DNA of 64,000 nt from an uncultured bacterium (GTDB lineage Bacteria; Patescibacteriota; Minisyncoccia; Minisyncoccales; CAVTZN01), in NCBI GenBank assembly GCA_963703245.1, contig OY969803.1, forward strand, positions 245,842-309,841, in the 5' to 3' direction. Made by a program: the position numbers and the translations under genes. The notes below the pieces were generated by a model. The model was given only the letters and a program-made list of their open reading frames with translations. It searched no databases and was not told the DNA's origin. Position 1 is the stretch's first letter, and every line of letters begins with the position of its first letter. Shown here one piece after another: positions 4,155 through 60,491 of the stretch.

Positions 4155-6221
4155 TTAATTAGGCCAATCCTCTACCATTAAACTTATTTTTTTGTTTTTT
4201 ATTGAAAATTTTTGGTAAATTTCTTCAGTGATAAAAGGCATAAAAGGATGTAAAAGTTTTAGAGAAGTTAAAAGTACGTAAACTAGTATTTGTTGAGTTT
4301 CTTTAGGGTTTTGTTTTTTTGATGCTTCAATATACTTATCACAAAAATCATGCCAGAAAAAATCATATAATCTTTGACTGGCTCTTCCAATTTGAAAACC
4401 ATCAAAATCTTTATTAATAGATTTTATTACATCATTTAAACTTTTTAAAATTCTTTTATCTGCCGGCGTCAGCTTTTTTGATTTTAAAATTCGTGATTTG
4501 TTTTGAATTTTTAAATTTGAGTTCGGAAGCTGTAATAAAACGAATCTGCTGGCATTCCAAATTTTATTACAGAATTTTCTGCCCATTATTATTGTTTCTT
4601 CTGAAAAACGAATATCCTGAAGGCTTGTAATTTGCCAAGCTATTCCAAATCGAGTACTGTCTGCTCCATATTTTTCAATTAGATTAATCGGATCAATGCC
4701 AGTCCCTAGAGATTTTGACATTCTTTTTCCTTCTTTTGTTAGAACAGTGGCGTGAATATAGACTTTGTCAAAAGGGATTTTTTTCATAAATTCCAAGCCA
4801 GAAAAAATCATTCTCGCTATCCAAAGATTGATGATTCCTCGATCACTAGAAAGGATATTAGTTGGATAAAAAGTTTTTAAATCATTTGTTTTTGATGGCC
4901 AGCCGAGAGTAGCGAAAGGCCACAAAGCAGAAGAAAACCAAGTATCTAAAACATCATCTACCTCGGGAAGGGGGATTTTATGACCCCACCAAAGCTGGCG
5001 AGAAATACACCAGTCTTTTATATTATTTAACCAATTAAAATAAATTTTTTCCCATTTTTTCGGATAAAATTTTATTTGCCCATTTTCTACTGGCCTTTTT
5101 GCCATTTCAGCGAGTTTATCCATTTTTAAGAACCATTGTTCAGATGGTAAAAGCTCAATAATAGTTTTACAGCGATCGCAATGCGGCACCTCATGGACAT
5201 ATTCTTCAATTTTTTCCAATAGTCCAAGATTTTTTAAATCTTCAACAATTTTTTGGCGAGCCTCATTAATATTAAGCCTTTGATAAGTCAGAGGCGCTTC
5301 ATTGGTTATTTTTCCTTTCTCATTTATAACCTGGATAATTTCCAAATTATGTCTTAATCCAATTTCATAATCAGTCAAATCATGAGCGGGGGTTATTTTT
5401 ACTGCTCCTGTGCCAAATTTTGGGTCAACTATCTTATCAGTAATTATTGATATCTCTTTATTAACCAAAGGAAGAATAACTTTTTTCCCAACGAAATTTT
5501 TGTATCTGATATCTGTAGGATTTACCGCTATCGCAGCATCTCCCAGCATTGTTTCTGGCCTGGTGGTGGCAACAGTAATATATTTTTTAAATTCATTTTT
5601 AAAATGATAACGAATATACCACAAATTTCCTTTTTCTTCCTGATAATCCAATTCCAAATCAGATAAAGAAGTCCCGCATCTTGGGCACCAATTTATTGCT
5701 CTTTTCCCCTTATAAATCCAGCCCTTTTTATAATAATGAGAAAAAGCTTCATTTACGGCTTTAGCATAATTTTTATCTAAAGTGAAGGTTGTTCTTGACC
5801 AATCCAAGGAGCAGCCTATTTTTTTTAATTGCTCCAAAATAATATTTCCATAATTAATTTTCCACTGCCAAATCCTTTCAATAAATTTTTCTCGACCTAA
5901 ATCAAAACGAGTCAACCCTTCCTTTTTTAATTCTTTTTCAACAACGTTTTGGGTAGAGATACCAGCATGATCAATCCCCGGAAGCCAAAGAGTTTTATAT
6001 CCTTGCAGCCGTTTCCAGCGGATTTGAATATCTTGAATCGTAGCGTTTAAAGCATGGCCCATATGGAGAACGCCAGTAATATTCGGCGGAGGAAGAACAA
6101 TCGTAAAAGTTTTCTTTCTTTTGCCTGGCAGTTTATCTGGATTAAAAAAACCCGACTTTTGCCAGAGACGGTAGATTTTAGTTTCTACTTTTTTCGGGTC
6201 ATACACTTTCGAAAGATTCAT
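4155..6221 (-). CDS. valS: Valyl-tRNA synthetase (short form, 688 aa)
   Basis: PPPNITGVLHMGHA (HIGH), TTRPETMLGDAAIAVNP (ValRS editing-domain signature), WCISRQLWWGH and RMSKSLG (KMSKS). The usual C-terminal coiled-coil is absent. Confidence 0.85.
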   Translation of the reverse strand: MNLSKVYDPKKVETKIYRLWQKSGFFNPDKLPGKRKKTFTIVLPPPNITGVLHMGHALNATIQDIQIRWKRLQGYKTLWLPGIDHAGISTQNVVEKELKKEGLTRFDLGREKFIERIWQWKINYGNIILEQLKKIGCSLDWSRTTFTLDKNYAKAVNEAFSHYYKKGWIYKGKRAINWCPRCGTSLSDLELDYQEEKGNLWYIRYHFKNEFKKYITVATTRPETMLGDAAIAVNPTDIRYKNFVGKKVILPLVNKEISIITDKIVDPKFGTGAVKITPAHDLTDYEIGLRHNLEIIQVINEKGKITNEAPLTYQRLNINEARQKIVEDLKNLGLLEKIEEYVHEVPHCDRCKTIIELLPSEQWFLKMDKLAEMAKRPVENGQIKFYPKKWEKIYFNWLNNIKDWCISRQLWWGHKIPLPEVDDVLDTWFSSALWPFATLGWPSKTNDLKTFYPTNILSSDRGIINLWIARMIFSGLEFMKKIPFDKVYIHATVLTKEGKRMSKSLGTGIDPINLIEKYGADSTRFGIAWQITSLQDIRFSEETIIMGRKFCNKIWNASRFVLLQLPNSNLKIQNKSRILKSKKLTPADKRILKSLNDVIKSINKDFDGFQIGRASQRLYDFFWHDFCDKYIEASKKQNPKETQQILVYVLLTSLKLLHPFMPFITEEIYQKFSIKNKKISLMVEDWPN

Positions 6222-6283: not shown

Positions 6284-6358
6284 GGCCCTGTCGTCTAGCC
6301 CGGTCCAGGACACCAGGTTTTCATCCTGGTAACACGGGTTCAAATCCCGTCGGGGCTA
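6284..6358 (+). tRNA. tRNA-Glu (anticodon UUC), no encoded CCA
   Basis: Same layout as E. coli tRNA-Glu: acceptor GGCCCTG/CGGGGCT (two G-U pairs), anticodon stem CCAGG/CCTGG, loop TTTTCAT, T arm ACGGG-TTCAAAT-CCCGT. Confidence 0.85.
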
Positions 6359-6369
6359 CATATAATAAA

Positions 6370-7905
6370 ATGGAAATAGATTATCTTAAAATTGGCAAAG
6401 CTTCCGATTTGAAAAGCTCGAAAGACCGAGCTCTTTTTCGTTTTTTCGAGATTTTGCCAGGCGTTTTATCTTTCGGGACTATATTTTTAGCAATTTTTCT
6501 TTCCTGGTTAAAACCAGTTTGGATTTCTTTTTTTATTATTTTATTCGCTATCTACTGGCTTATTCGGACCCTTTATTTTTCTTTCCACCTTAGGGCAACT
6601 TACAAAAAAATGAAAGAACATGAAAAAATTGATTGGATAGAAAAACTGAATAATCTGAAACAGGAAAACTGGCAAAATATCTATCATTTAATAATTTTTC
6701 CGATGTATAAAGAACCTTTAGAGATTGTACGAGAAACTTTTTTCGCCCTACTCAGCACCGATTATCCAAAAAATAAGATGATTGTTGTTTTGGCCTGCGA
6801 AGAAAAAACTAGAGATTCCAGTCAGATTGTAGCAGAAGCGATGGGAAAAGAATTTAGCGGAAAATTTTTTAAATTTCTTATAACTTGGCATCCAAATAAT
6901 TTAGTTGGAGAAATTACCGGAAAAGGCTCGAATGAAACTTGGGCGACCCGTCAGGTAAAAGAATTAATAATTGACCAATTAAAAATCCCTTATCAAAACA
7001 TTATCGTTTCTTCTTTTGATGTTGATACGGCAGTTTCCCCGAAATATTTTAGTTGTTTATCTTATCATTATTTAATTTCTGAAAAACCAAATAAAACCAG
7101 TTTCCAGCCAGTTCCTCTTTTTATAAATAATATCTGGCAAGCTTCTCCTCTTTCTCGAGTATTCGCCTTTTCAACAACTTTTTGGCAAATGATGTGCCAA
7201 GAAAGGCCGGAAAAACTAATCACTTTTTCTTCCCATTCGATGAGTTTTAAGGCTTTGGTTGATGTTGATTTCAAGCAGGTGAATGTTGTTTCCGATGATT
7301 CCAGAATTTTCTGGCAGTGTTTTCTAAGATATAAAGGAGATTATAAGGTTCAACCTCTTTATTATCCGTTATCTATGGACGCAAATGTGGCAAAAAGTTT
7401 TTGGCGAACACTGATAAATATTTACAAACAACAAAGAAGATGGGCTTATGGAGTGGGAGAGATACCTTATTTTATGTTTAATTTCTTAAAAAACAAAACA
7501 ATTCCTTTATCAAAAAAAATTCCCCTCGGATTTACCCTCTGGGAAGGACATTGGTCTTGGGCAACAAATTCAATAATTATCTTTTTATTGGGCTGGTTAC
7601 CTCTAGTTTTAGGGGGAAAGGGATTTGGTCAAACCCTTATTTCTTATAATCTACCCAAAATAACCAGCTGGATTTTGACCATAGCCATGGTGGGTTTGGT
7701 TTCGTCTGCTTATTTTAGTTTTATTTTATTGCCTCCCAAACCTCCGCAATACGGACGTTTTAAATATTTTATTGTAATTGTAGAATGGTTTTTAACCCCC
7801 CTAATTATGATATTTTTTACTTCAATTCCAGCACTAGATGCTCAAGCAAGATGGATGCTAGGAAAATATATGGGCTTTTGGGTGACGGAAAAAGTAAGAA
7901 AGTAA
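6370..7905 (+). CDS. Membrane glycosyltransferase family 2 (processive, cellulose-synthase-like)
   Basis: N- and C-terminal TM bundles, an SSFDVDT motif, and QQRRWAYG (QxxRW), the hallmark of processive GT2 enzymes. Confidence 0.65.
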   Translation: MEIDYLKIGKASDLKSSKDRALFRFFEILPGVLSFGTIFLAIFLSWLKPVWISFFIILFAIYWLIRTLYFSFHLRATYKKMKEHEKIDWIEKLNNLKQENWQNIYHLIIFPMYKEPLEIVRETFFALLSTDYPKNKMIVVLACEEKTRDSSQIVAEAMGKEFSGKFFKFLITWHPNNLVGEITGKGSNETWATRQVKELIIDQLKIPYQNIIVSSFDVDTAVSPKYFSCLSYHYLISEKPNKTSFQPVPLFINNIWQASPLSRVFAFSTTFWQMMCQERPEKLITFSSHSMSFKALVDVDFKQVNVVSDDSRIFWQCFLRYKGDYKVQPLYYPLSMDANVAKSFWRTLINIYKQQRRWAYGVGEIPYFMFNFLKNKTIPLSKKIPLGFTLWEGHWSWATNSIIIFLLGWLPLVLGGKGFGQTLISYNLPKITSWILTIAMVGLVSSAYFSFILLPPKPPQYGRFKYFIVIVEWFLTPLIMIFFTSIPALDAQARWMLGKYMGFWVTEKVRK

Positions 7906-7906
7906 A

Positions 7907-10020
7907 TCATTCTAAGTGAATTCTCTTTTGAAGCTCATCTAATTTCGCCCGCAAGAGCGGGTATTTTTTTAATAGTGGATCTTTTTCCAAAATTTCTTTT
8001 GCGGTATTTCTTGTCCTTTCGACTAATTTTATATCTTTCAGTGATTTCATTACTAAATCAGGAAGTCCCCATTGCCTTCTCCCCGAAAAGTCTCCCGGTC
8101 CTCTTATTTCCAAATCTTCCTGCGATAGCGAAAATCCGTCTTCGCATTTTATTAAGGCTTTTAATCTTTGATGCGTTTTTCTTGAAGATGATTCCGTAAA
8201 CAACAAACAATAAGATTGATAATGAGATCTTCCCACTCTACCTCTGAATTGGTGAAGCTGGGCAAGGCCGAAATGTTCAGTCCCTTCTATCATCATTATT
8301 GTGGCGTTGGGAACGTCAATCCCCACTTCAACAACGGAAGTTGAAACTAAAATATTCGTTTTTCCCATTTTAAAATTCCTCATTATTCTTTCCTTTTCTT
8401 TGGATGCTATTTTCCCGTGAAGTTTTCCGACTTTCAAATCAGGGAAAATTTCTTTGGATAATTTTTCATATTCTTCGTCAACGGCTTTCGCTTCTTTCCA
8501 ACCGCCGAAATCATTTTTGTCGTCATTCTTCCCAGATTCTATTCTTGGGCAAATTACAAATGCCTGTCTTCCTTCTTCAATCTGCGCTCTTATAAAATTG
8601 TATGCGTCTTCTCTTTCTTCAGGCGGTAATTATTTTCGTAATTATTTTTTTCCTTCCTTTCGGCAATTCTGTTATCAGCGACAAATCAAGGTCTCCGTAA
8701 ATAGTGAGAGCCAAGGTTCGGGGGATAGGGGTAGCTGTCATTGATAGCAGATGAGGAATGAAATTTTTCTGTTTGCAAAGTTTAGCTCTTTGTTCAACAC
8801 CAAATCTGTGCTGTTCGTCAATTATTATTAAGGCGAGGTTGTTAAATTTCACTTCTTTTTGTATCAACGCGTGAGTGCCGATTATAATATCTATATCGCC
8901 AGTATATAATTTTTTCCAAAAGTTTCTTGCGGGAAATTTCTATAGTTTCATTTTTCAGTTTTTTAGCGCGCAATAGGTCGGTTTTACCGGTAAGCAAAGC
9001 AATACTTAATTTGAATTTGAATAATAATTTTGAAATTTCCTGAAAATGCTGCTTAGCTAAAATTTCGGTTGGCGCCATAATTACAGTTTGATACCCGGCT
9101 TTGGCCGCGTTCAATGCGGCTATTGTTGCCACAACCGTTTTTCCCGAGCCGACATCTCCTTCTAAAAGTCGGTTCATAGGATGGGATTTTTCCAAATCTT
9201 TCAATATCTGCCAACTTGCTCTTCGTTGGGAATCAGTGAGTTTGAAGGGCAAAGATTCAACGAAGTTTTTGATTTTCGGCAGATCGGTCGGAATTGAAAC
9301 TGATTTTGCTTTTAATATTTTTATTCTTTCTCTTAAAACGGAAAGCTCTATAAAGAAAAGCTCTTCGAAAGAAAATCTTTCCTGAGATATTTTTGCTAAA
9401 TCCATTGAATCAGGAAAATGAATTTGCCAAAGAGCTTTTTTAAGAGGCAAAAATTTTTCTTTTTTTATAATTTCTTCCGGCAGTGGATCTAAAATTTTAT
9501 CTCGAAACTGAGAAAGCAAGGGCTTTAAGATATAACGAAACCATCTTGAAGAAAGTTTTCTGGTTTCAGGATAAACTGGCACAATTCTCCCAACATGGGT
9601 TAAAGAAGTGGCTTTGCCGATTTTTTCATAAATAGGGTTGGAAAGATAAAAATCATTTTTTCTTGTGCTAACCTTTCCGGCCAGACAAACATTTTCTCCT
9701 TCTTTCAGAGTTTCTGTCAAATAGGGTTGGTTAAACCAAACCACTTTTATTGCTCCGGTTTTATCTTCGACAATCGCCTGAGTTAGAATTATTCTTAATT
9801 TAAAAATTCTTTTATTTTCTATTTTACTAATTTTCCCTTGAATACAGCCGAAACTTTTTGATTTTAACTGGGAAATGGTAATTATCTTTGAAAAATCGTC
9901 ATAACGATTAGGAAAATAATAAAAAAGATCTCGGATATTTTTCAACCCAAGTCTTTTAAGCCCTTTCTGGGAAACCGGTCCAATTCCGGAAATTTGAGAA
10001 AGAAGAGTGAATAAATTCAT
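7907..10020 (-). pseudogene. recG: ATP-dependent DNA helicase RecG, split over three reading frames by two 1-nt frameshifts
   Basis: Track ORFs 8842..10020 (wedge domain, GDVGSGKT Walker A), 8619..8867 ([18 protein letters not shown]) and 7907..8437 (VSTSVVEVGIDVPNAT, QLHQFRGRVGRS) are colinear RecG pieces. Homology continues across the junctions (…[15 protein letters not shown]…, …[32 protein letters not shown]…) when the frame is shifted. Confidence 0.85.
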
Positions 10021-42111: not shown

Positions 42112-43524
42112 ATGAACGTCAATTCAAACATTTTTCGTACTTATGATATAAGAGGGATTTATCCTAATGATTTAAATGAGGAAGTTGTTCGTATGATTTG
42201 TAGGGCTTATATAATTAGATACCCCAAAGCCAATAAAATCGTTGTTTCCCAAGATACGCGCAAAAGTTCTCCTATTTTGGCAAGAGCGATAATTGATGAA
42301 CTTATTAATTTAGGGAAAGAAGTAATTAATATTGGGATAGCTCCTGACTCTTTATTTTATTTTTCTATTTTTAATTATCATTTTGATGGAGGATTTGCGA
42401 TCGAAGGTTCTCATAATCCGAAAGAATATAACGGATTAATCTTACATGTTCGGAGACCAGGGCAGAAAATCGGTGAAGATATCGCAGAAAAGGAATTAGA
42501 CGAATTAAAAGAATTAGTTATTAAAGAAGTAAAGCCAAAAAAACAACAGAAATTAGGGAGAATGATAATTTTTGACCCCCTAGAAGATTATATTAATTAT
42601 ATTGTTAACAAAATAAGCCTAAAACGGCCATTAAAAATCATTTTCGATACTGGCAATGGAGCTGTAAGTTTTTTGCCAGAAAAAATTTTTAAAAGGCTAG
42701 GCTGTCAAACAAGAACAATTTACGGAGAATTTAATGGAGATTTTCCACATCATTTACCCGATCCTTATAAAGAAGAAAATATAAAAGACCTTCAAAAGAT
42801 AGTTGTAGATGAAAAAGCTGATTTAGGATTTGCTTACGATGGCGACGGCGATCGCGTGGTGCCGATTGATAATCAAGGAAGAGCAATTAGTGGAGATTTC
42901 TGCCTTTTAATGTTGGCTAAGCAGTCCCTAAAAAAGAAAAAAGGACCAATTGTCCACGATATGAGAATTTCAAAAATATTTTTAGAAGAAATGAAAAAAG
43001 AAAATGTTAAAACTTTTTTTTCCATTTCTCATCATAATGCTGTTATTAATAAAATTATTAAAACAAAGGCTGTTTTTGGAGGAGAGATTACATTGCATTT
43101 CTTTTTCCCCCTTGATTATTATCTATGCGATGATGCCGTATTCGCTTCTTTAAAATTAGCTGAAATTTTCTCACAGTATGAAAATCTCGCAAGTTATATT
43201 GATAGCTTACCATCTTCCTTCTCTAGCCAGGAGATATTTATTGATACAACCGATGAAGAAAAATTTAAAATTATTAAAAATTTACAAAAATACCTCCGTA
43301 AAAATAATTATAATTTTATAGATATTGATGGAGCCAGAATTAATTTTCCTAATGGTTGGGCTTTAGCAAGGGCGGCTAATACCACGCCAATTATTAAATG
43401 CCGGTTTGAAGGAGATACTAAAGAAGATTTAATAGAAATTGAAAAGAAATCTTTAGATATTTTCAAAAAAGTAGGTATACCCGTAACAAAAAAGACCTAT
43501 GAAGAATTAGGTCTAAAAGAGTAA
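42112..43524 (+). CDS. Phosphomannomutase / phosphoglucomutase family
   Basis: Active-site GSHNPKEYNG and metal-binding loop YDGDGDR; four-domain size (470 aa). Confidence 0.8.
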   Translation: MNVNSNIFRTYDIRGIYPNDLNEEVVRMICRAYIIRYPKANKIVVSQDTRKSSPILARAIIDELINLGKEVINIGIAPDSLFYFSIFNYHFDGGFAIEGSHNPKEYNGLILHVRRPGQKIGEDIAEKELDELKELVIKEVKPKKQQKLGRMIIFDPLEDYINYIVNKISLKRPLKIIFDTGNGAVSFLPEKIFKRLGCQTRTIYGEFNGDFPHHLPDPYKEENIKDLQKIVVDEKADLGFAYDGDGDRVVPIDNQGRAISGDFCLLMLAKQSLKKKKGPIVHDMRISKIFLEEMKKENVKTFFSISHHNAVINKIIKTKAVFGGEITLHFFFPLDYYLCDDAVFASLKLAEIFSQYENLASYIDSLPSSFSSQEIFIDTTDEEKFKIIKNLQKYLRKNNYNFIDIDGARINFPNGWALARAANTTPIIKCRFEGDTKEDLIEIEKKSLDIFKKVGIPVTKKTYEELGLKE

Positions 43525-43542: not shown

Positions 43543-44520
43543 TTATAAAAGGCCCATTTTTTTTCTAACATCGGCCATTGTAGATTGAGCAATAACTTGA
43601 GCTTTCTTGGCTCCTTTATCTAAAATATCTTTAACATAGACTTCTCTTTGTAGAAGCTCTTTTCTTTTTCGGCGGAATGGTTCTAAGGAATTTATTAATA
43701 AATTAGCTAATGATTTTTTAAATTCCGCATAACCCTTTCCTTTAAATTCTCTTTCAACATCCTTAATTTCTTTTTTGGAAAAAAGACTATAAATTGTCAA
43801 AAGATTGGAAATGCCGGGTTTCTTCTCAAGATTATATTTTATCTCCTTGCCAAGATCAGTAAGAGATGTCATTACCTTATTTTTTATAATATCCGGCTCA
43901 TCAAATAAACCAATACAACCCCTAGGGTCTTCGGTTTTTGACATTTTCTTTTTTGGGTTTTGTAAAGACATTATTTTTTCTCCCATTTTTGGAAGTAGGG
44001 CCTTAGGCTCTTGAAAAGTTTGGCCAAATTTTTGGTTAAATTTCCGAGCAATAATCCTAGATAATTCAACATGCTGTTGCTGGTCTTTACCGACTGGAAC
44101 AATATCTGTTTGATAAAGTAAAATATCTGCTGCCATTAAAACAGGATAATTTAAAAGTCCGGCGTTAATATTTGTTTTGAATTGACGGGATTTTTCTTTA
44201 TATTGCGTCATTCGGCCTAGTTCGCCAACAGGAGTAATCACGTTTAATAACCAAGCTAATTCTGAGTGCTCTTTTACTTGGGACTGAATAAAAAATATAC
44301 ATTTCTCTGGGTCAAGGCCTGCAGCTAAATAAGCGGCTGCAACATCAAAAATGTTCTTTTGTAATTCTTTCGGTTCCCAAGGAGTAGTAAGGGCGTGCAA
44401 ATCAACAATACAAAAAACGCATTCATTTTCTTTTTGAAGCTCAAGCCATTGATGGATTGCTCCCAAATAATTTCCTATATGTAATTCTCCGGTTGGCCGG
44501 ATACCTGAAAATATTCGCAT
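43543..44520 (-). CDS. trpS: Tryptophanyl-tRNA synthetase
   Basis: The N-terminus GIRPTGELHIGNYLGA carries the HIGH-type motif. Also present are VPVGKDQQQHVEL and KMSKT. Confidence 0.9.
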   Translation of the reverse strand: MRIFSGIRPTGELHIGNYLGAIHQWLELQKENECVFCIVDLHALTTPWEPKELQKNIFDVAAAYLAAGLDPEKCIFFIQSQVKEHSELAWLLNVITPVGELGRMTQYKEKSRQFKTNINAGLLNYPVLMAADILLYQTDIVPVGKDQQQHVELSRIIARKFNQKFGQTFQEPKALLPKMGEKIMSLQNPKKKMSKTEDPRGCIGLFDEPDIIKNKVMTSLTDLGKEIKYNLEKKPGISNLLTIYSLFSKKEIKDVEREFKGKGYAEFKKSLANLLINSLEPFRRKRKELLQREVYVKDILDKGAKKAQVIAQSTMADVRKKMGLL

Positions 44521-44527
44521 AAAATTT

Positions 44528-46203
44528 TTAAACTTCGATAACTACTGGTAAAATCATTGGTCGTCTTTGAGTTTTTGAAAAGAGGAATTGGCCGATTTTA
44601 TTCCTGATTTCGTCTTTAATATAAATCCAATTTACTGCTCCGCCCGAACCCGCCGCCTCATCAACGATTTTTATCACTCTTTTACGAGTATCATAAAGCA
44701 AGTTTTTTGATTCTCTCAAATAAACGAATCCTCTAGATATTATATCAGGAGAGCCCTTAACTTTTCCAGTTTGGCGATCCACAACCGCTACAATTACAAA
44801 CATTCCGTCTTTAGACAAGGTTTGGCGGTCTCTTAAAACAACTTCTCCCACGTCTCCAATTCCTAATCCATCAACCATAATATAATTTGAAGGGACGATA
44901 TTTTTCTCAATAAAAATATTTTCCGGACTTAAATTAATAATTTGTCCATTTTCAGCTACAACGATATTTTTATCCGGAAAGCCCGCAAGTTTTAGCAATT
45001 TGTCCATGGTTTACCAACATTGAATATTGCCCGTGAATAGGCAAGAAAAATTTAGGCTTAATTATTTTTATCATTTCCTCCAATTCTAATTCTTTGGGCA
45101 TGGCCGCCGGCATGAATATCCATCATTTTATAATGAAAAACCTTACAGCCCTGCCGCAAAATTTCATCTTTTAAAAATTGACCGTTCTTTCATTTCCCGG
45201 GATTACCGAAGAGGAGAAAATAACAGCATCTCTCTTTTTTAAGTGTAAGAATCTATGTTCTCCGTTAGCAATTCTCATTAAAGAAGCCTGTCCTTCTCCT
45301 TGTGCGCCCGTACAGAGAATTGTTATTTTTGAATCAGGGATACTTTCCATATTTCTTTAACTTTAATTAAAGTTCCTTTTTTAACCTTCAAATATCCTAA
45401 AATTTTGGCAATTTCCACATTGGTTTTCATTGAATATCCTTCAACTATCACTTTTCTGCCGTATTTTTCAGACAGGGTAATAATTTGCTGGATTCTGTTG
45501 ATAAGAGAAGCAAAAGTGGCGGCAATAATGCGGCCAGGGGCATTTTGGAAAATTTCTCTAAATTTTCTTGAATAGTTTTTTCTGAAAGAGAATGGTTTGG
45601 TTCTTCAGCGCCGGTTGAGTCTGAAAGCAAAAGAAGAATATTCCTCTTCCCAAAATTCCTTAATTTCTCAAAATTAGTCGGTAAGTCATTTACCGGATTT
45701 TCGTCGAATTTGAAATCAGAAGTATGTAAAATATTACCTACCGGTGTAGAAATAAAAATACCCAAATTGTCCGGGATATTATGATTTTGTCGGAAAAATT
45801 CAACCCTGAAAGGTCCTAAATTAATTTTATCTCCGTCTTTAACTTCTTGGATTTCAAATTTTGGTTGTAATGAGAAATCTTCTTGTCTTTTTAAGATGAT
45901 GCCCTTAGTTAGGGGAGAAGCGAAAAGTGGCGGAGTTCCGATTTTTTCAATTAGATAAGGAACAGCTCCGATATGGTCGTAGTGGCCATGAGTAAAGACT
46001 ATCCCTAAAATATTTTTTTCTTTTCCTTTGAGATAGGAAATATTTGGAATAATAAAATCAATGCCCGGCATATCTTCTTCCGGCATTCTAAAGCCCATAT
46101 CAATAATTAAAATACTTCTTCCATATTCAAGAAGCATCATATTTCGGCCGACCTCTCCTAGGCCGCCCAGCGGTATAAGACGTAAATTTTTTTCTTTTAT
46201 CAT
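44528..46203 (-). pseudogene. rnj: Ribonuclease J, central ~0.5 kb broken by at least five frameshifts
   Basis: 45448..46203 encodes the metallo-beta-lactamase part (HGHYDHIG) and 44528..45007 the C-terminal domain. Between them, the RNase J-like segments IFQNAPGRIIAATFASLINRIQQ, ITILCTGAQGEGQASLMRIANGEH..VIPGNE, MDIHAGGHAQ and LEEMIKIIKPKFFLPIHGQY lie in successively different frames. Confidence 0.85.
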
Positions 46204-46204
46204 G

Positions 46205-46286
46205 TGCGGATGGTGGGATTCGAACCCACAAGCCTTACGGCATACGGTCCTGAACCGTACGCGTATTCCAGTTCCGCCACATCCGC
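46205..46286 (-). tRNA. tRNA-Leu (anticodon CAG), type II, no encoded CCA
   Basis: Reverse complement: GCGGATG-TG-GCG-GAACTGGAATA-CGC-G-TACGG-TTCAGGA-CCGTA-TGCCGTAAGGCTT-GTGGG-TTCGAAT-CCCAC-CATCCGC-A. Confidence 0.9.
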
Positions 46287-46288
46287 TT

Positions 46289-46882
46289 TTAACCTCTTAA
46301 AAAATCCAAATTTTTTGGTATTGATTTTAAGGATTTTTCAAAACGTAGCTTAGGGATTTTTTTGTAATTTTTATTTTTGATCCAGCCAGATTTTGTGTAG
46401 TAATAGCAAGCGCCATGCATTTTTTCCAATTCTTCATAAATATTTTTGTTTTTTTCAGAAACCCAGTTTCCTATTTTCAAAATCTTTTTTAAAGGATTAA
46501 TTGTAATAATATAATATTTGGGAGACACAATTACCCAACTTCCTTTTTCAGCCTTAATGACAAAAACATCTTTAATAATTTTCCCTTTCATTTTTTGCAT
46601 TAAAAATATTGCTTTTCCCTTGAGAACGGTATAAAGTTCCGGAAATTTTTTTGAATTGCGATTACCTTTAGTTTTTACAAATTCTCTTCCAAGCATTTTT
46701 GGAGGGATATCTGTGATATCATATCTTAATTCTTCCATTCTGTTTACCCCACGATACATATAATAAAGCGGAAAATTTTTAGTTGCTTTCAGCAAATCTT
46801 TATCAAAAAGAACATCTTTTATATCATACAAGTATCTAATTTCCGAATATTTACTTTTTATTTTTTGCTTTTTAATTTTCAT
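46289..46882 (-). CDS. Cupin-type phosphoglucose-isomerase-like protein (metal ligands apparently substituted)
   Basis: GREFVKTKGNRNSKKFPELYTVLKGKAIFLMQ aligns by eye with the archaeal cPGI core GKEFFMTKGHFHAKLDRAEVYVALKGKGGMLLQ. The start was set at ATG 46882, 1 nt after the upstream stop. Confidence 0.5.
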   Translation of the reverse strand: MKIKKQKIKSKYSEIRYLYDIKDVLFDKDLLKATKNFPLYYMYRGVNRMEELRYDITDIPPKMLGREFVKTKGNRNSKKFPELYTVLKGKAIFLMQKMKGKIIKDVFVIKAEKGSWVIVSPKYYIITINPLKKILKIGNWVSEKNKNIYEELEKMHGACYYYTKSGWIKNKNYKKIPKLRFEKSLKSIPKNLDFLRG

Positions 46883-46883
46883 T

Positions 46884-48802
46884 TTATTTCCAGCTTCTTT
46901 CTGTTGCAATATACCAATCTTCTATATTAGAAAATCTTTTTGAAGGGTCAACGATTATCTTGACATCCACTCCTTTAATTTCTTTAGAAATCGGATAAAT
47001 GTAATTTGGACTATATAAAAATATAACAGGGACTTCTTCAATTAGAATATCCTGGAATTCTTCATATTTTTGTTTTCTTTCCTGAGCATTCAAATTTTGG
47101 CGAGCGTCTTCAAGAAGCTTATCGGTTTGTTTGTTTTCGAAAATAGCTAAATTTAACCCAGGATCTTTTTTCTGAGAGGAATGCCAGAAAGGGAAGGGGT
47201 CGGGCGTTAAATTTAGAACCTCGCCGAATAACAATGCCTGATAATTTCTTGGTTTGATAATTTCATTCTCTAATTCTGGATTATCGTAAAGTTGAATTTC
47301 TAATTTCAAGCCTAAAATCTCCTGCCAATTATTTTTTAAAAAATTAGCAACCTCCATTAATTCAGGTTGGTTAATTGTTATTATGGATAATTCAAAGGGT
47401 TGAAGTTCTTCGGGAGATTGAGCACAAAGCTCATTAAGTTTTTGGCGCGTGGCTTTTCCGACTTCTCCTGTCCCTTCTTGAAGTCCGGCTGGTTCCAATA
47501 TTTCTTTTTTATATTTTTCTTGGAACTTAATTACTGCTATTTTTGTGTTTTCACCAAAAGTGCCCGTGATTTTTCCGTCAGGATAAATTTCGCTGTCTTG
47601 AGCAAGGCATTTTTGAAGCTCTGTTACTTCATTCCCCTGGGAACCAGTCCTAAGATCTGATTTAAATTGAAAAACTTGTTTTTTTATAATTTTTTCCCTA
47701 AAACCGTCTCCATTAACATCTTGGAAACCGGCTTTTTCTAAAATTTCTTTCGCTTTTTCAGGATTGAATTCAGAAATTTTATTTGGTTTTTCAAATCCGA
47801 AAATTTCCGGCAAAATTGGAGAAAGAACAATTTCTCCCTCTCCTAAAAGCACTTTTTTAATAAGATCTTCTTTGTTGGTTCCCAAATCTAAGGCTTGTCG
47901 GATGTTTTTATCCTGGAAAATTGTCGCTTTTTGAGTATTTAAAAAAACAGAAAAATATCTTGGTAAAGAAAGGCGATGAACATTAAGAGCTTTTCCCTTA
48001 ATTTGATTTAAATCTTTTGCGGGAAGATAACTTAAACCATCCACTCCTCCGTTTTTTAAAGAATTTAATGCCTCTTTTTCATCTTTAAAATATTGAAATG
48101 TTATTTCAGAAATGTAGGGTCCTTCTTTATAATAACGGAGATTTGGAGACAGAGTAAAAGATTTGATATAACCTAATTTATCCTGTTTGAAGTTTTTAAA
48201 TTTAAATGGGCCCGTTCCAATTGGTTGTAAATTATAGACCGTTAAAGCGAAATTTTCCGGAGGAATATCTTGCCAAATATGTTTTGGCAAGATTTTCACT
48301 GTGCAATTTTCCAAAAAACTTGCATAAGGACTTTTTAATTTGAGGCGAATTCCACTTTCATTAATTTTTTCAACTTCCACTCCCAACCAATTTGCCCGTA
48401 GGGGACTTTTATAGTCGGCATTTTGAATAGTTTTAATTGTAAAGATAACATCATCGTTGGTAAATTGTTCCCCATCATGCCAAAGAATGTCGTCTCTTAA
48501 ATAAAATTCATATGTTTTTCCATCATCTTTAATTTCAAAGCTTTTTGCCAAATCAGGAACAATTTTACCTTTCCCGTCATATTTTACTAATCCCGAAAAA
48601 ATTAACTCAACCAAATCGCGGTCGGCGTCATTTGCTGAAGCATAAATAGGATTAATAAGTCTTGGCTGACCAATTATGCCTTCAATATAGTTGCCTCCAA
48701 GCTTTGCCCCAGGCTGGGTTTTTTCTAAATAAAGAGAATATAGAAGGAAAATTCCTGAAAATAAGAAAAGAAATAAAAAACAAAATAAAGCGATTTTTTC
48801 AT
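46884..48802 (-). CDS. Family-5 (peptide/nickel type) substrate-binding protein with an inserted peptidoglycan-binding domain; 5' end frameshifted
   Basis: SBP_bac_5-like sequence throughout. A PG_binding_1-like insert reads GSQGNEVTELQKCLA...ITGTFGENTKIAVIKFQ. The in-frame N-terminal TM segment has no canonical start, but ATG 48802..48800 followed by A6 would give MKKIALFCFLFLF... if the run were A7. Confidence 0.65.
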
Positions 48803-59866: not shown

Positions 59867-59952
59867 GGAAGGGTCGCATAGTTGGTCTAGTGCACACGCT
59901 TGGAAAGCGTGCAACCCGAAAGGGTTCGCGAGTTCGAATCTCGCCCCTTCCG
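59867..59952 (+). tRNA. tRNA-Ser (anticodon GGA), type II, no encoded CCA
   Basis: Acceptor GGAAGGG/CCCTTCC, anticodon stem CACGC/GCGTG, loop TTGGAAA, variable arm CAACCCGAAAGGGTTC, T arm GCGAG-TTCGAAT-CTCGC, discriminator G. Confidence 0.9.
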
Positions 59953-59954
59953 CT

Positions 59955-60491
59955 ATGTCTAAAAATATCGAAGTAGAAGTCAGAAGTTTTATTAATAAAA
60001 AACAATATCAGGATCTTTTAAAATTTTTTAGAAAGAATGGAAAATTCTTAAGAAAAGAAAATCAGACGACATATTACTTTAGTGGAAAACAAGATTTAAG
60101 AATCCAAAAAACCGATAAATTAGCCAAGCTTTGGCTAAAAGGAGGAAAAATTCACGAAAATTATAGAGAGGATATTTTTATCGAATGTAGAAAAGAAGAT
60201 TTCGAAAAATTAGAGAAATTATTATCAAAACTTGGGTTTAAAATAAAAATAAAATGGTTTAGAAAAAGAAACGATTTTTTATGGAAAGGAATTAAAATTT
60301 CGGTTGATTTTACAAAAGGATACGGCTATATAATCGAACTTGAAAAATTTGCTTCAGAAAAAGATAAGAAAAAAATTTATCAAATACTTATTAAAAAATT
60401 AAAATATTTAGATATAAAACTTACCTCCAAAGCCGAATTTAATAAAAGATTCAATTATTACAAAAATAATTGGAGAAAGCTTATTAAATAA
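59955..60491 (+). CDS. CYTH-domain protein (CyaB / triphosphate tunnel metalloenzyme-like)
   Basis: It starts MSKNIEVEVRSFI (the ExExK-type N-terminal motif) and is about 178 aa with beta-rich periodicity. The track ORF 59865 start lies inside the tRNA, so the start was reset to ATG 59955. Confidence 0.6.
   Translation: MSKNIEVEVRSFINKKQYQDLLKFFRKNGKFLRKENQTTYYFSGKQDLRIQKTDKLAKLWLKGGKIHENYREDIFIECRKEDFEKLEKLLSKLGFKIKIKWFRKRNDFLWKGIKISVDFTKGYGYIIELEKFASEKDKKKIYQILIKKLKYLDIKLTSKAEFNKRFNYYKNNWRKLIK

What the first reader, a model, noticed from the sequence alone, without database searches (positions are those of the whole stretch)
46201..46291. tRNA-Leu(CAG) wedged between two ORFs with 2-nt and 1-nt spacers
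On the minus strand, the cupin gene stop is at 46291..46289 and the tRNA 5' end is at 46286. The tRNA discriminator A is at 46205, followed by C at 46204 and the RNase J ATG at 46203..46201. The tRNA therefore acts as the only punctuation between two protein genes in a run of co-oriented genes (SBP, cupin, tRNA, rnj, trpS). rnj has no SD, because the upstream sequence is the tRNA acceptor stem. This is the second instance of the CGC-A-C-ATG junction seen at recG.
Basis: partly seen in the sequence, partly recalled or inferred. Interest (0 to 1): 0.65.

Follow-up and report, generated by a model that had tools for sequence, protein, structure and literature searches.

The report
tRNA-Leu butted against RNase J start
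In this tiny-genome groundwater-type (Patescibacteria) bacterium, a leucine tRNA gene lies 2 bases after one protein gene and 1 base before the start codon of the RNase J gene, so cutting out the tRNA probably makes a leader-free message, much as in animal mitochondria; no RNA data exist to prove it.

Summary
On the minus strand the order is: cupin-type PGI stop TAA (46291-46289), AA, tRNA-Leu(CAG) (46286-46205), C (46204), rnj ATG (46203). Short-read contigs from three other metagenome runs reproduce the junctions.

The tRNA is real: 22 of 27 pairs covary across 60 relatives. The start codon is real: the protein aligns end to end with B. subtilis RNase J1.

The unit SBP-PGI-tRNA-rnj-trpS has spacers of 1, 2, 1 and 7 nt and one terminator-like hairpin at its end.

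tRNA-Leu(CAG) lies upstream of rnj in 63 of the 74 loci (window plus 73 relatives) that could be scored. The spacer is at most 2 nt in 9, with several independent origins.

The lack of a Shine-Dalgarno site at rnj is not special. The whole window lacks them (2 of 46 genes), and -10 boxes sit where transcripts would start at the ATG.

Best reading (about 0.6): co-transcription, then RNase P and 3' tRNA cleavage release a near-leaderless, 5'-monophosphate rnj mRNA. No RNA data exist.

Caveat: rnj here carries five indels, probably consensus errors.

This is a bacterial variant of mitochondrial tRNA punctuation. I found no paper describing it, but this scan has noted it repeatedly.

The parts
46884..48614 (-). 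SBP_bac_5 solute-binding protein ORF with a peptidoglycan-binding insert; stop TAA at 46886..46884. It is the first gene of the co-oriented row.
   Evidence: Pfam PF00496 at 4.9e-74 and PF01471; sequence; present upstream of rnj in 59 relatives.
46289..46882 (-). Cupin-type glucose-6-phosphate isomerase. Its likely ATG at 46882 lies 1 nt after the SBP stop. Its stop TAA is at 46291..46289.
   Evidence: Pfam PF06560 at 8.2e-27; sequence.
46287..46288 (-). 2-nt spacer (AA) between the PGI stop codon and the tRNA 5' end, which is the expected RNase P site.
   Evidence: Upstream ORFs end 0-10 nt before the tRNA in most related loci.
46205..46286 (-). tRNA-Leu(CAG), type II with a long variable arm, discriminator A at 46205, no encoded CCA.
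   Evidence: ARAGORN; Rfam 55.6 bits. The minimum-free-energy fold is a cloverleaf, z = -3.27. Across 60 orthologues, 22 of 27 pairs show compensatory changes.
46204..46204 (-). The single base (C, position 74 of the tRNA) between the discriminator and the rnj ATG.
   Evidence: Position 74 is C in 58 of 63 tRNA-Leu(CAG) genes, although CCA is encoded in only 16.
44528..46203 (-). rnj (RNase J), ATG 46203..46201, stop TAA 44530..44528. It is broken in this assembly by five indels at about 45556 (-1), 45354-45336 (+2), 45181 (-1), 45092 (+1) and 44990 (+1).
   Evidence: ORF pieces. The stitched protein is 86% identical to the best database hit. It aligns end to end with 3zq4. Indels were mapped against L001, L002 and L003.
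43543..44520 (-). trpS (tryptophanyl-tRNA synthetase); its ATG lies 7 nt after the rnj stop.
   Evidence: Pfam PF00579 at 9.7e-77; sequence. It lies directly downstream of rnj on the same strand in about 47 of the relatives' loci (start within about 2.1 kb of the rnj motif); in three further loci it is on the opposite strand.
43493..43514 (-). Terminator-like hairpin plus a T run after trpS. It is the only such site that lies outside coding sequence in the row.
   Evidence: sequence.

Best explanation
SBP, PGI, tRNA-Leu(CAG), rnj and trpS form one very compact transcription unit, with spacers of 1, 2, 1 and 7 nt. The tRNA is a normal, functional tRNA embedded in the polycistron. RNase P would cut at its 5' end, leaving the PGI message ending 2 nt after its stop codon. 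A 3' tRNA endonuclease (RNase Z type) would cut after the discriminator A46205 or after C46204, and the CCA-adding enzyme would complete the tRNA. The downstream product would then start 5'-P-(C)AUG, so the rnj-trpS message would be leaderless or have a 1-nt leader. It would be translated in the Shine-Dalgarno-independent, 5'-AUG-dependent way that this lineage appears to use for most genes. What is shown: the sequence anatomy, the authenticity of the tRNA and of the start codon, conservation of the gene order, recurrent contraction of the spacer, and absence of SD sites. What is inferred: co-transcription, the two cleavages, the 5' end of the message and leaderless initiation.
For: The anatomy is exact and is reproduced in independent short-read contigs. 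There is no room for a promoter. The upstream ORF ends 2 nt before the tRNA here and 0-10 nt before it in most relatives. No sigma-70-like site lies between PGI, the tRNA and rnj; the 14 nt before the ATG are CCACCATCCGCAC, and promoter-like hits in the region are not above the shuffled expectation. A terminator-like hairpin is found only after trpS. The tRNA is under structural selection: 22 of 27 pairs are compensatory and the CAG anticodon is invariant. The start codon is fixed by end-to-end alignment to RNase J1. The tRNA-Leu(CAG)-rnj order holds in 63 of the 74 loci scored (the window plus 73 relatives), with spacers of 1-2 nt in 9, 6-35 nt in 16 and longer in 38. The abutting state needs at least 4 origins on well-supported branches, and rnj is intact in all those relatives. 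In L009 and L014 the junction is A-CC-ATG, so the A of CCA is the A of the start codon; the 3' cut must therefore fall before it for the message to survive. The window has no SD signal: 2 of 46 genes against a 9.7% background. In 9 of 36 genes a -10-like hexamer, four of them with TGn, ends 6-9 nt before the ATG, where transcription would start at or next to the ATG. The first 24 nt of the processed 5' end are predicted to be unpaired. [quoted passage not shown] Cuts between the two Cs of CCA have been mapped in Actinobacteria (PMC3848588, PMC4681348).
Against: There is no RNA evidence of any kind; no RNA run holds this organism. The abutment is evolutionarily labile: close relatives have 6-17-nt spacers. 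It may therefore be tolerated rather than selected. The promoter scan covers only sigma-70-type consensus sites.
Confidence: 0.6

Rival explanations
1. Mutually exclusive fates. The tRNA and rnj are co-transcribed, but the tRNA 3' end is made by a cut further downstream, inside the first codons of rnj, followed by 3' exonucleolytic trimming. Each precursor would then give either a mature tRNA or a translatable rnj message, and tRNA maturation would lower rnj expression instead of enabling it.
For: In relatives L009 and L014 the encoded CCA overlaps the ATG, so a tRNA that kept its encoded A76 would decapitate the message. CPR genomes are reported to keep PNPase and few other RNases (PMC12641178). 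The presence of RNase Z could not be checked.
Against: rnj is retained in more than 90% of CPR genomes and is presumably needed (PMC12641178). The arrangement arose several times and persists with intact rnj. C74 is conserved in 58 of 63 genes without a full CCA, which fits a precise endonucleolytic cut followed by CCA addition.
Confidence: 0.14
2. An internal promoter. rnj has its own promoter inside the tRNA gene or the PGI 3' end, and is transcribed as a primary, triphosphorylated leaderless mRNA independently of tRNA processing.
For: This organism appears to place -10 boxes 6-9 nt before many ATGs, so primary leaderless transcripts are probably its norm. Some relatives with 10-25-nt AT-rich spacers could hold a -10 box.
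Against: The 14 nt before the ATG are the GC-rich acceptor and T-stem strand (CCACCATCCGCAC) with no -10-like hexamer. The same holds in all 8 abutting relatives. The promoter scan found nothing there. The tRNA sequence is constrained by its fold.
Confidence: 0.08
3. Neutral compaction around a dead gene. In this genome rnj is a decaying pseudogene with five indels, so the 1-nt spacer has no expression consequence. The junction would be a by-product of deletion bias in a shrinking genome.
For: Five indels lie within about 570 nt, not in long homopolymers. recG is also broken twice. Earlier unchecked notes list other broken genes in this genome.
Against: Near-identical short-read contigs from other runs lack three of the five indels: at 45552, 45340 and 45351. 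Eight relatives have the same abutment with intact rnj of 557-571 aa. rnj is near-universal in CPR (PMC12641178). The coding sequence between the indels is still 85-86% identical to the best homologues, with no stop codons in the correct frames.
Confidence: 0.12
4. Artefact or misannotation. The junction would be an assembly error, the tRNA a pseudo-tRNA, or the true rnj start a later Met.
For: The assembly does contain indel errors or mutations elsewhere.
Against: The junction is identical in three independent runs. The tRNA shows covariation. The alignment to solved RNase J structures begins at residue 3. The next in-frame Met, residue 22, would delete the conserved PLGGLGEVG strand.
Confidence: 0.02

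Closest known systems
Mitochondrial tRNA punctuation (Ojala, Montoya and Attardi 1981; animal mtDNA; from my own knowledge, cited within PMC4633059 and PMC5716156)
   Same: A tRNA gene lies directly between two protein-coding sequences with 0-2 nt on either side. There is no 5' UTR and no ribosome-binding site. Excision by RNase P and RNase Z would leave a leaderless mRNA with a 5'-monophosphate. The translation system does not use SD pairing.
   Different: This is a free-living or episymbiotic bacterium, not an organelle. Only some tRNAs are used this way (3 of 7 in the window). The stop codon is complete, so no completion by polyadenylation is needed. The neighbouring genes in the unit join without a tRNA, by 1-7-nt spacers. 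Processing has not been shown.
Bacterial mixed tRNA-mRNA operons (E. coli thrU-tyrU-glyT-thrT-tufB and secG-leuU; from my own knowledge)
   Same: A tRNA and protein genes share one transcript and are separated by RNase P and 3' processing.
   Different: In those operons the downstream message keeps a normal leader with an SD. Here 1 nt is left, so translation must be leaderless or must depend on processing.
Leaderless mRNAs of Actinobacteria, Deinococcus and archaea (PMC4633059, PMC4007540, PMC3848588)
   Same: Translation starts from a 5'-terminal AUG without SD pairing. This genome also appears to place -10 boxes so that transcripts start at the ATG.
   Different: Those 5' ends come from transcription initiation and carry a triphosphate. 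Here the end would come from RNA cleavage and carry a monophosphate.
tRNA-like elements used to cut out RNAs with exact ends in Haloferax volcanii (PMC4946936)
   Same: RNase P and tRNase Z acting on a tRNA-shaped element define the exact 5' or 3' end of the neighbouring RNA in a prokaryote.
   Different: That case is an engineered or tRNA-like element in an archaeon. Here the element is a genuine decoding tRNA and the released RNA is an mRNA.

Membership tests
tRNA-Leu, type II (Rfam RF00005) | Score above the curated threshold, and a cloverleaf with a long variable arm | tested here: met
   55.6 bits against a gathering score of 29. ARAGORN calls Leu(CAG). The minimum-free-energy fold is a cloverleaf with a variable arm.
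tRNA-Leu, type II (Rfam RF00005) | The structure is maintained by compensatory changes in orthologues, and the anticodon is conserved | tested here: met
   22 of 27 pairs have double-sided changes over 60 sequences, and CAG is invariant.
tRNA-Leu, type II (Rfam RF00005) | Encoded 3' CCA (not required in bacteria) | tested here: not met
   The sequence after the discriminator is C-ATG.
RNase J (beta-CASP metallo-beta-lactamase) | End-to-end similarity to solved RNase J, the HxHxDH motif, and beta-CASP and C-terminal domains | tested here: met
   The stitched protein aligns at 3-557 to 3zq4 5-555, E = 1.6e-148. HGHYDH is present. Homologues carry PF12706, PF22505, PF07521 and PF17770.
RNase J (beta-CASP metallo-beta-lactamase) | A single intact reading frame | tested here: not met
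   Five indels break the frame in this assembly. Three of them are absent from near-identical contigs of other runs.
tRNA punctuation (mitochondrial type) | The tRNA is directly flanked by coding sequences with no UTRs | tested here: met
   The spacers are 2 nt and 1 nt. The junction sequences are matched by Logan short-read contigs from other runs: the tRNA-rnj junction by X1 and X5, and the PGI-tRNA junction by X6.
tRNA punctuation (mitochondrial type) | One polycistronic precursor spans mRNA, tRNA and mRNA | not testable with these tools
   No RNA run holds the organism. Indirect evidence only: there is no promoter room and no terminator.
tRNA punctuation (mitochondrial type) | RNase P and RNase Z cuts create the mRNA ends | not testable with these tools
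   There is no RNA end mapping. The enzyme genes could not be searched for in the genome.
tRNA punctuation (mitochondrial type) | Incomplete stop codons completed by polyadenylation | tested here: not met
   PGI ends with a complete TAA.
Leaderless mRNA | No SD, and an AUG start at or within a few nt of the 5' end | tested here: inconclusive
   There is no SD. All nine abutting rnj starts (window plus 8 relatives) are ATG. The 5' end itself has not been mapped.

The most novel reading that the evidence does not exclude
In Paceibacteria, maturation of tRNA-Leu(CAG) may be the obligatory step that creates the translatable 5' end of the rnj message. That end is 5'-monophosphorylated, which is the preferred substrate of RNase J's own 5'-to-3' exonuclease. 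RNase J synthesis would then be self-limiting: the enzyme destroys its own leaderless mRNA unless a ribosome captures the terminal AUG first. This would be an autoregulatory loop tying RNA decay capacity to tRNA processing and to free ribosomes. A bolder form is that RNase J, a beta-CASP relative of RNase Z, makes the cut itself.
Probability: 0.12. Interest if true: 0.8.

Novelty: new variant of a known kind. Interest (0 to 1): 0.55.

Why it matters
tRNA punctuation with leaderless messages is regarded as a peculiarity of mitochondria. If it holds here, bacteria with very small genomes and no Shine-Dalgarno system would have arrived at the same solution, and tRNA maturation would become a step in making an mRNA.

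The locus offers a natural series for testing how close a tRNA can sit to a start codon. There are 63 orthologous junctions (the window and 62 relatives) with spacers from 1 to over 1000 nt.

The gene downstream is the 5'-monophosphate-dependent RNase J, so a concrete autoregulation hypothesis can be tested.

There is also a practical consequence. Public gene calls for these RNase J genes often run into the tRNA (for example N-termini ...CGFESHRPHM... and ...GSNPTVRTM...). Annotation pipelines therefore mis-start such genes.

Tried and rejected
- I therefore could not survey all tRNA junctions in the genome, look for a second rnj copy, or look for rnz, rnpA/rnpB, cca or the 16S 3' end.
- A motif scan of the window and 80 of the related loci for RNase Z-like or CCA-enzyme-like ORFs found none. 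These loci all cover the same syntenic region, so this says little.

**RNA evidence**
- Two searches for RNA runs found nothing: one with the junction and one with 10 kb around rpoBC.
- No DNA run holds the organism at more than 0.19 of the sampled words.

**Rejected readings**
- A later Met as the start: rejected by the alignment to RNase J1.
- A sigma-70 promoter inside the tRNA 3' half: rejected and by the sequence.
- A specific tRNA-rnj functional pairing as the reason for the conserved order: weakened. The whole block SBP-(PGI)-tRNA-rnj-trpS, with a divergently oriented PGM gene after it, is syntenic, so the order may simply be inherited.
- Abutment as a conserved, single-origin trait: rejected. 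The tree needs at least 4 origins, and close relatives differ.

**Other**
- Two look-ups of encoding contigs added nothing beyond the same synteny.
- Literature searches for a description of this arrangement in bacteria or CPR found none. This covers only the open-access library held.
Full report
**1. The observation**

On the minus strand the sequence reads ...GGT TAA | AA | GCGGATG...CATCCGC A | C | ATG ATA AAA GAA....
- The upstream ORF stops at 46291-46289. Two bases follow.
- The tRNA runs from 46286 to its discriminator A at 46205.
- A single C (46204) precedes the ATG at 46203.
- ARAGORN and Rfam both call a tRNA-Leu(CAG); Rfam gives 55.6 bits against a threshold of 29. CCA is not encoded.

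The 'cupin' is a cupin-type glucose-6-phosphate isomerase (PF06560). The genes around it are an SBP_bac_5 protein and TrpRS.

The junction is not an assembly accident. Logan short-read contigs from three other metagenome runs match it:
- X1 covers 46037-46279 with no difference.
- X5 covers 46063-46213 with no difference.
- X6 covers 46205-46320 with one difference.

**2. The two partners are genuine**

*The tRNA.* Thermodynamic folding alone gives a type II cloverleaf, z = -3.27. In an alignment of 60 orthologues, 22 of 27 base pairs show compensatory double changes, and the CAG anticodon never varies.

*The start codon.* ATG 46203 is the first start codon after a stop in its frame. The frame-corrected protein aligns at residues 3-557 to residues 5-555 of B. 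subtilis RNase J1, PDB 3zq4. The next Met, residue 22, would remove the invariant PLGGLGEVG strand.

**3. A caveat: rnj is broken in this assembly**

Alignment to the intact genes of L001, L002 and L003 places five indels within about 570 nt:
- about 45556, -1
- 45354-45336, +2
- about 45181, -1
- about 45092, +1
- about 44990, +1

Near-identical contigs in runs X3 and X4 differ from the window at three of these places: an extra base at 45552 and one base fewer at each of 45340 and 45351. Intact versions of the gene therefore exist in very close strains. recG, the other tRNA-abutted gene, has two frame breaks.

CPR genomes keep rnj in more than 90% of cases (PMC12641178). I read the indels as consensus errors at roughly 70%. 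Real decay in this one population is not excluded.

**4. The surroundings**

The row is packed as tightly as it can be:
- SBP stop, then 1 nt, then the PGI ATG.
- PGI stop, then 2 nt, then the tRNA.
- tRNA, then 1 nt, then the rnj ATG.
- rnj stop, then 7 nt, then the trpS ATG.
- A terminator-like hairpin with a T run follows trpS at 43514-43493.

No sigma-70-like site and no terminator outside coding sequence lies between PGI, the tRNA and rnj. Promoter-like hits in the region are no more frequent than in shuffled sequence.

**5. Relatives**

The best protein hits are Parcubacteria (Nealsonbacteria-like) at up to 86% identity. Many public gene calls for these RNase J genes have N-terminal extensions that are simply the translated tRNA T arm and acceptor strand. 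This was the first sign that the layout is common.

I fetched 80 genome loci with rnj at 56-85% identity.
- Counting the window, a co-oriented tRNA-Leu lies upstream of rnj in 63 of 74 scorable loci (62 of the relatives). The anticodon is CAG in 62 and GAG in L077.
- The spacer from discriminator to ATG is 1 nt in the window and 2 nt in eight relatives.
- Of those eight, six read CT-ATG. Two (L009, L014) read CC-ATG, so an encoded CCA shares its A with the start codon.
- The spacer is 6-35 nt in 16 loci and longer in 38. No locus has 3-5 nt.
- The short spacers are on average 78% A+T.
- All abutting relatives have intact rnj of 557-571 aa.

On an RNase J tree the abutting state needs at least four origins on well-supported branches, and eight by parsimony. 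Sister taxa differ: L005 has 2 nt against 17 in L013, and L009 has 2 against 7 in L006. Abutment is therefore a recurrent and reversible end point of spacer shrinkage, not an ancient fixed trait.

On the 5' side, the upstream co-oriented ORF ends 0-10 nt before the tRNA in most loci, whatever that gene is.

The whole block SBP-(PGI)-tRNA-rnj-trpS, with a divergently oriented PGM gene after it, is syntenic. The tRNA-rnj order may therefore be inherited gene order and not a specific functional pairing.

Position 74 is C in 58 of 63 genes, although a full CCA is encoded in only 16.

**6. The translation context**

- Only 2 of 46 genes in the window have an SD-like 4-mer at -18 to -4, against a 9.7% background.
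- Upstream regions are A/T-rich throughout.
- In 9 of 36 genes a -10-like hexamer, four of them with the extended TGn, ends 6-9 nt before the ATG. This is where transcription would begin at or next to the ATG.
- A published survey found the anti-SD motif in only 48% of Parcubacteria 16S genes (PMC9297842).

This lineage therefore probably initiates on leaderless or very short-leader messages as a rule.

Two other tRNAs in the window are followed by a start codon in the same way: tRNA-Arg(GCG) as A-C-ATG before recG, and tRNA-Ser(GGA) as G-CT-ATG before a CYTH gene. tRNA-Glu is followed by a start codon after 11 nt.

**7. The most likely mechanism (confidence about 0.6)**

One transcript covers the row. 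RNase P and a 3' tRNA endonuclease release the tRNA, and CCA is added afterwards. The downstream fragment begins 5'-P-(C)AUG and is translated as a leaderless rnj-trpS message.
- If the 3' cut falls after C74, as the conserved C74 hints, the window's message would start exactly at AUG. Cuts between the two Cs of CCA have been mapped in Actinobacteria (PMC3848588, PMC4681348).
- The first 24 nt of the processed message are predicted to be unpaired.
- In the unprocessed precursor the AUG lies 2 nt from the acceptor helix, so processing should be needed before a ribosome can load. This is inference.
- Translational coupling, which is plausible for PGI and trpS, cannot bridge the 82-nt tRNA.

**8. 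Rivals**

- *Mutually exclusive fates* (0.14): a cut downstream of the tRNA followed by exonucleolytic trimming would destroy the message.
- *An internal promoter* (0.08): this is contradicted by the GC-rich 14 nt before the ATG, here and in all abutting relatives.
- *Neutral compaction around a dead gene in this genome* (0.12).
- *Artefact* (0.02).

None of these can be closed without RNA data, and no RNA run holds this organism.

**9. Comparison with what is known**

The anatomy and the proposed logic are those of mitochondrial tRNA punctuation. Complete stop codons and the partial use of tRNAs are the differences. Bacterial mixed tRNA-mRNA operons exist, but their messages keep normal leaders. 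Bacterial leaderless mRNAs are known, but they arise from transcription start sites.

I found no paper describing tRNA-abutted start codons in CPR or other bacteria in the library I could search.

Earlier unchecked notes of this scan report the same pattern in this genome (recG) and in several other Patescibacteria genomes. They agree with my reading but are not independent evidence.

**10. What this locus adds**

The downstream gene is RNase J, whose exonuclease prefers 5'-monophosphate ends (PMC10126417). A processing-made rnj message would be its own enzyme's preferred substrate. This suggests a testable autoregulatory loop; I treat it as speculation at about 0.12.

**Verdict**

This is a new variant of a known kind. 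Interest is moderate (0.55): it is one well-documented member of an apparently unpublished, lineage-wide habit, and direct RNA proof is still missing.

Noticed in passing
window 44984-45560: rnj carries five frame-breaking indels within about 570 nt, none in a long homopolymer. The first 650 nt and last 470 nt of the gene are clean. Near-identical contigs from other runs lack three of the indels.
   Followed up: partly
window 7907-10020: recG, which also starts 1 nt after a tRNA (tRNA-Arg GCG), is split into three frames, with breaks near 8900 and 8625.
   Followed up: partly
window, upstream of ATGs at 6221(-), 19190, 19770, 27101, 38760, 42054(-), 42112, 58963: -10-like hexamers, several with an extended TGn, end 6-9 nt before the start codon. 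These genes would therefore be transcribed as leaderless or 1-3-nt-leader mRNAs. SD-like motifs are rarer than background (2 of 46 genes).
   Followed up: partly
window 59867-59957 and 6284-6372: tRNA-Ser(GGA) is followed by CT and then the ATG of a CYTH-domain gene, and is preceded by an M48 peptidase stop 7 nt upstream. tRNA-Glu(TTC) has a near-consensus promoter upstream (TTGATT, 17 nt, TAAAAT) and is followed after 11 nt (CATATAATAAA) by the ATG of a 511-aa membrane protein.
   Followed up: no
database proteins P0009, P0019, P0024, P0037, P0069, P0072, P0085, P0107: Public gene calls for RNase J in related genomes start inside the upstream tRNA gene. Their N-termini are translated T-arm and acceptor sequence. 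This is a systematic mis-annotation caused by the abutment.
   Followed up: partly
L026, L027, L029, L030, L032 (one clade): The open frame upstream of the RNase J core continues for 90-190 codons of Pro/Gln/Asn-rich sequence. This may be an N-terminal low-complexity extension in that clade.
   Followed up: no
L010:1562-1701: The tRNA-Leu is followed by CT-ATG, as in the abutting relatives, but the rnj frame starts about 139 nt later with GTG. This may be a remnant of an abutting start displaced by an insertion.
   Followed up: no
window 46165-46310 (-): In the predicted fold of the unprocessed precursor, the U-rich end of PGI pairs with the A-rich first codons of rnj. This extends the acceptor helix and buries the AUG. 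With such base composition it may well be chance (z = -1.76).
   Followed up: no
L036, L038, L039, L041, L042, L068 (one clade, including Candidatus Microsyncoccus archaeolyticus): This clade has rnj and the SBP/PGI neighbours but no tRNA-Leu upstream of rnj within the locus. The tRNA seems to have been lost or moved once.
   Followed up: no
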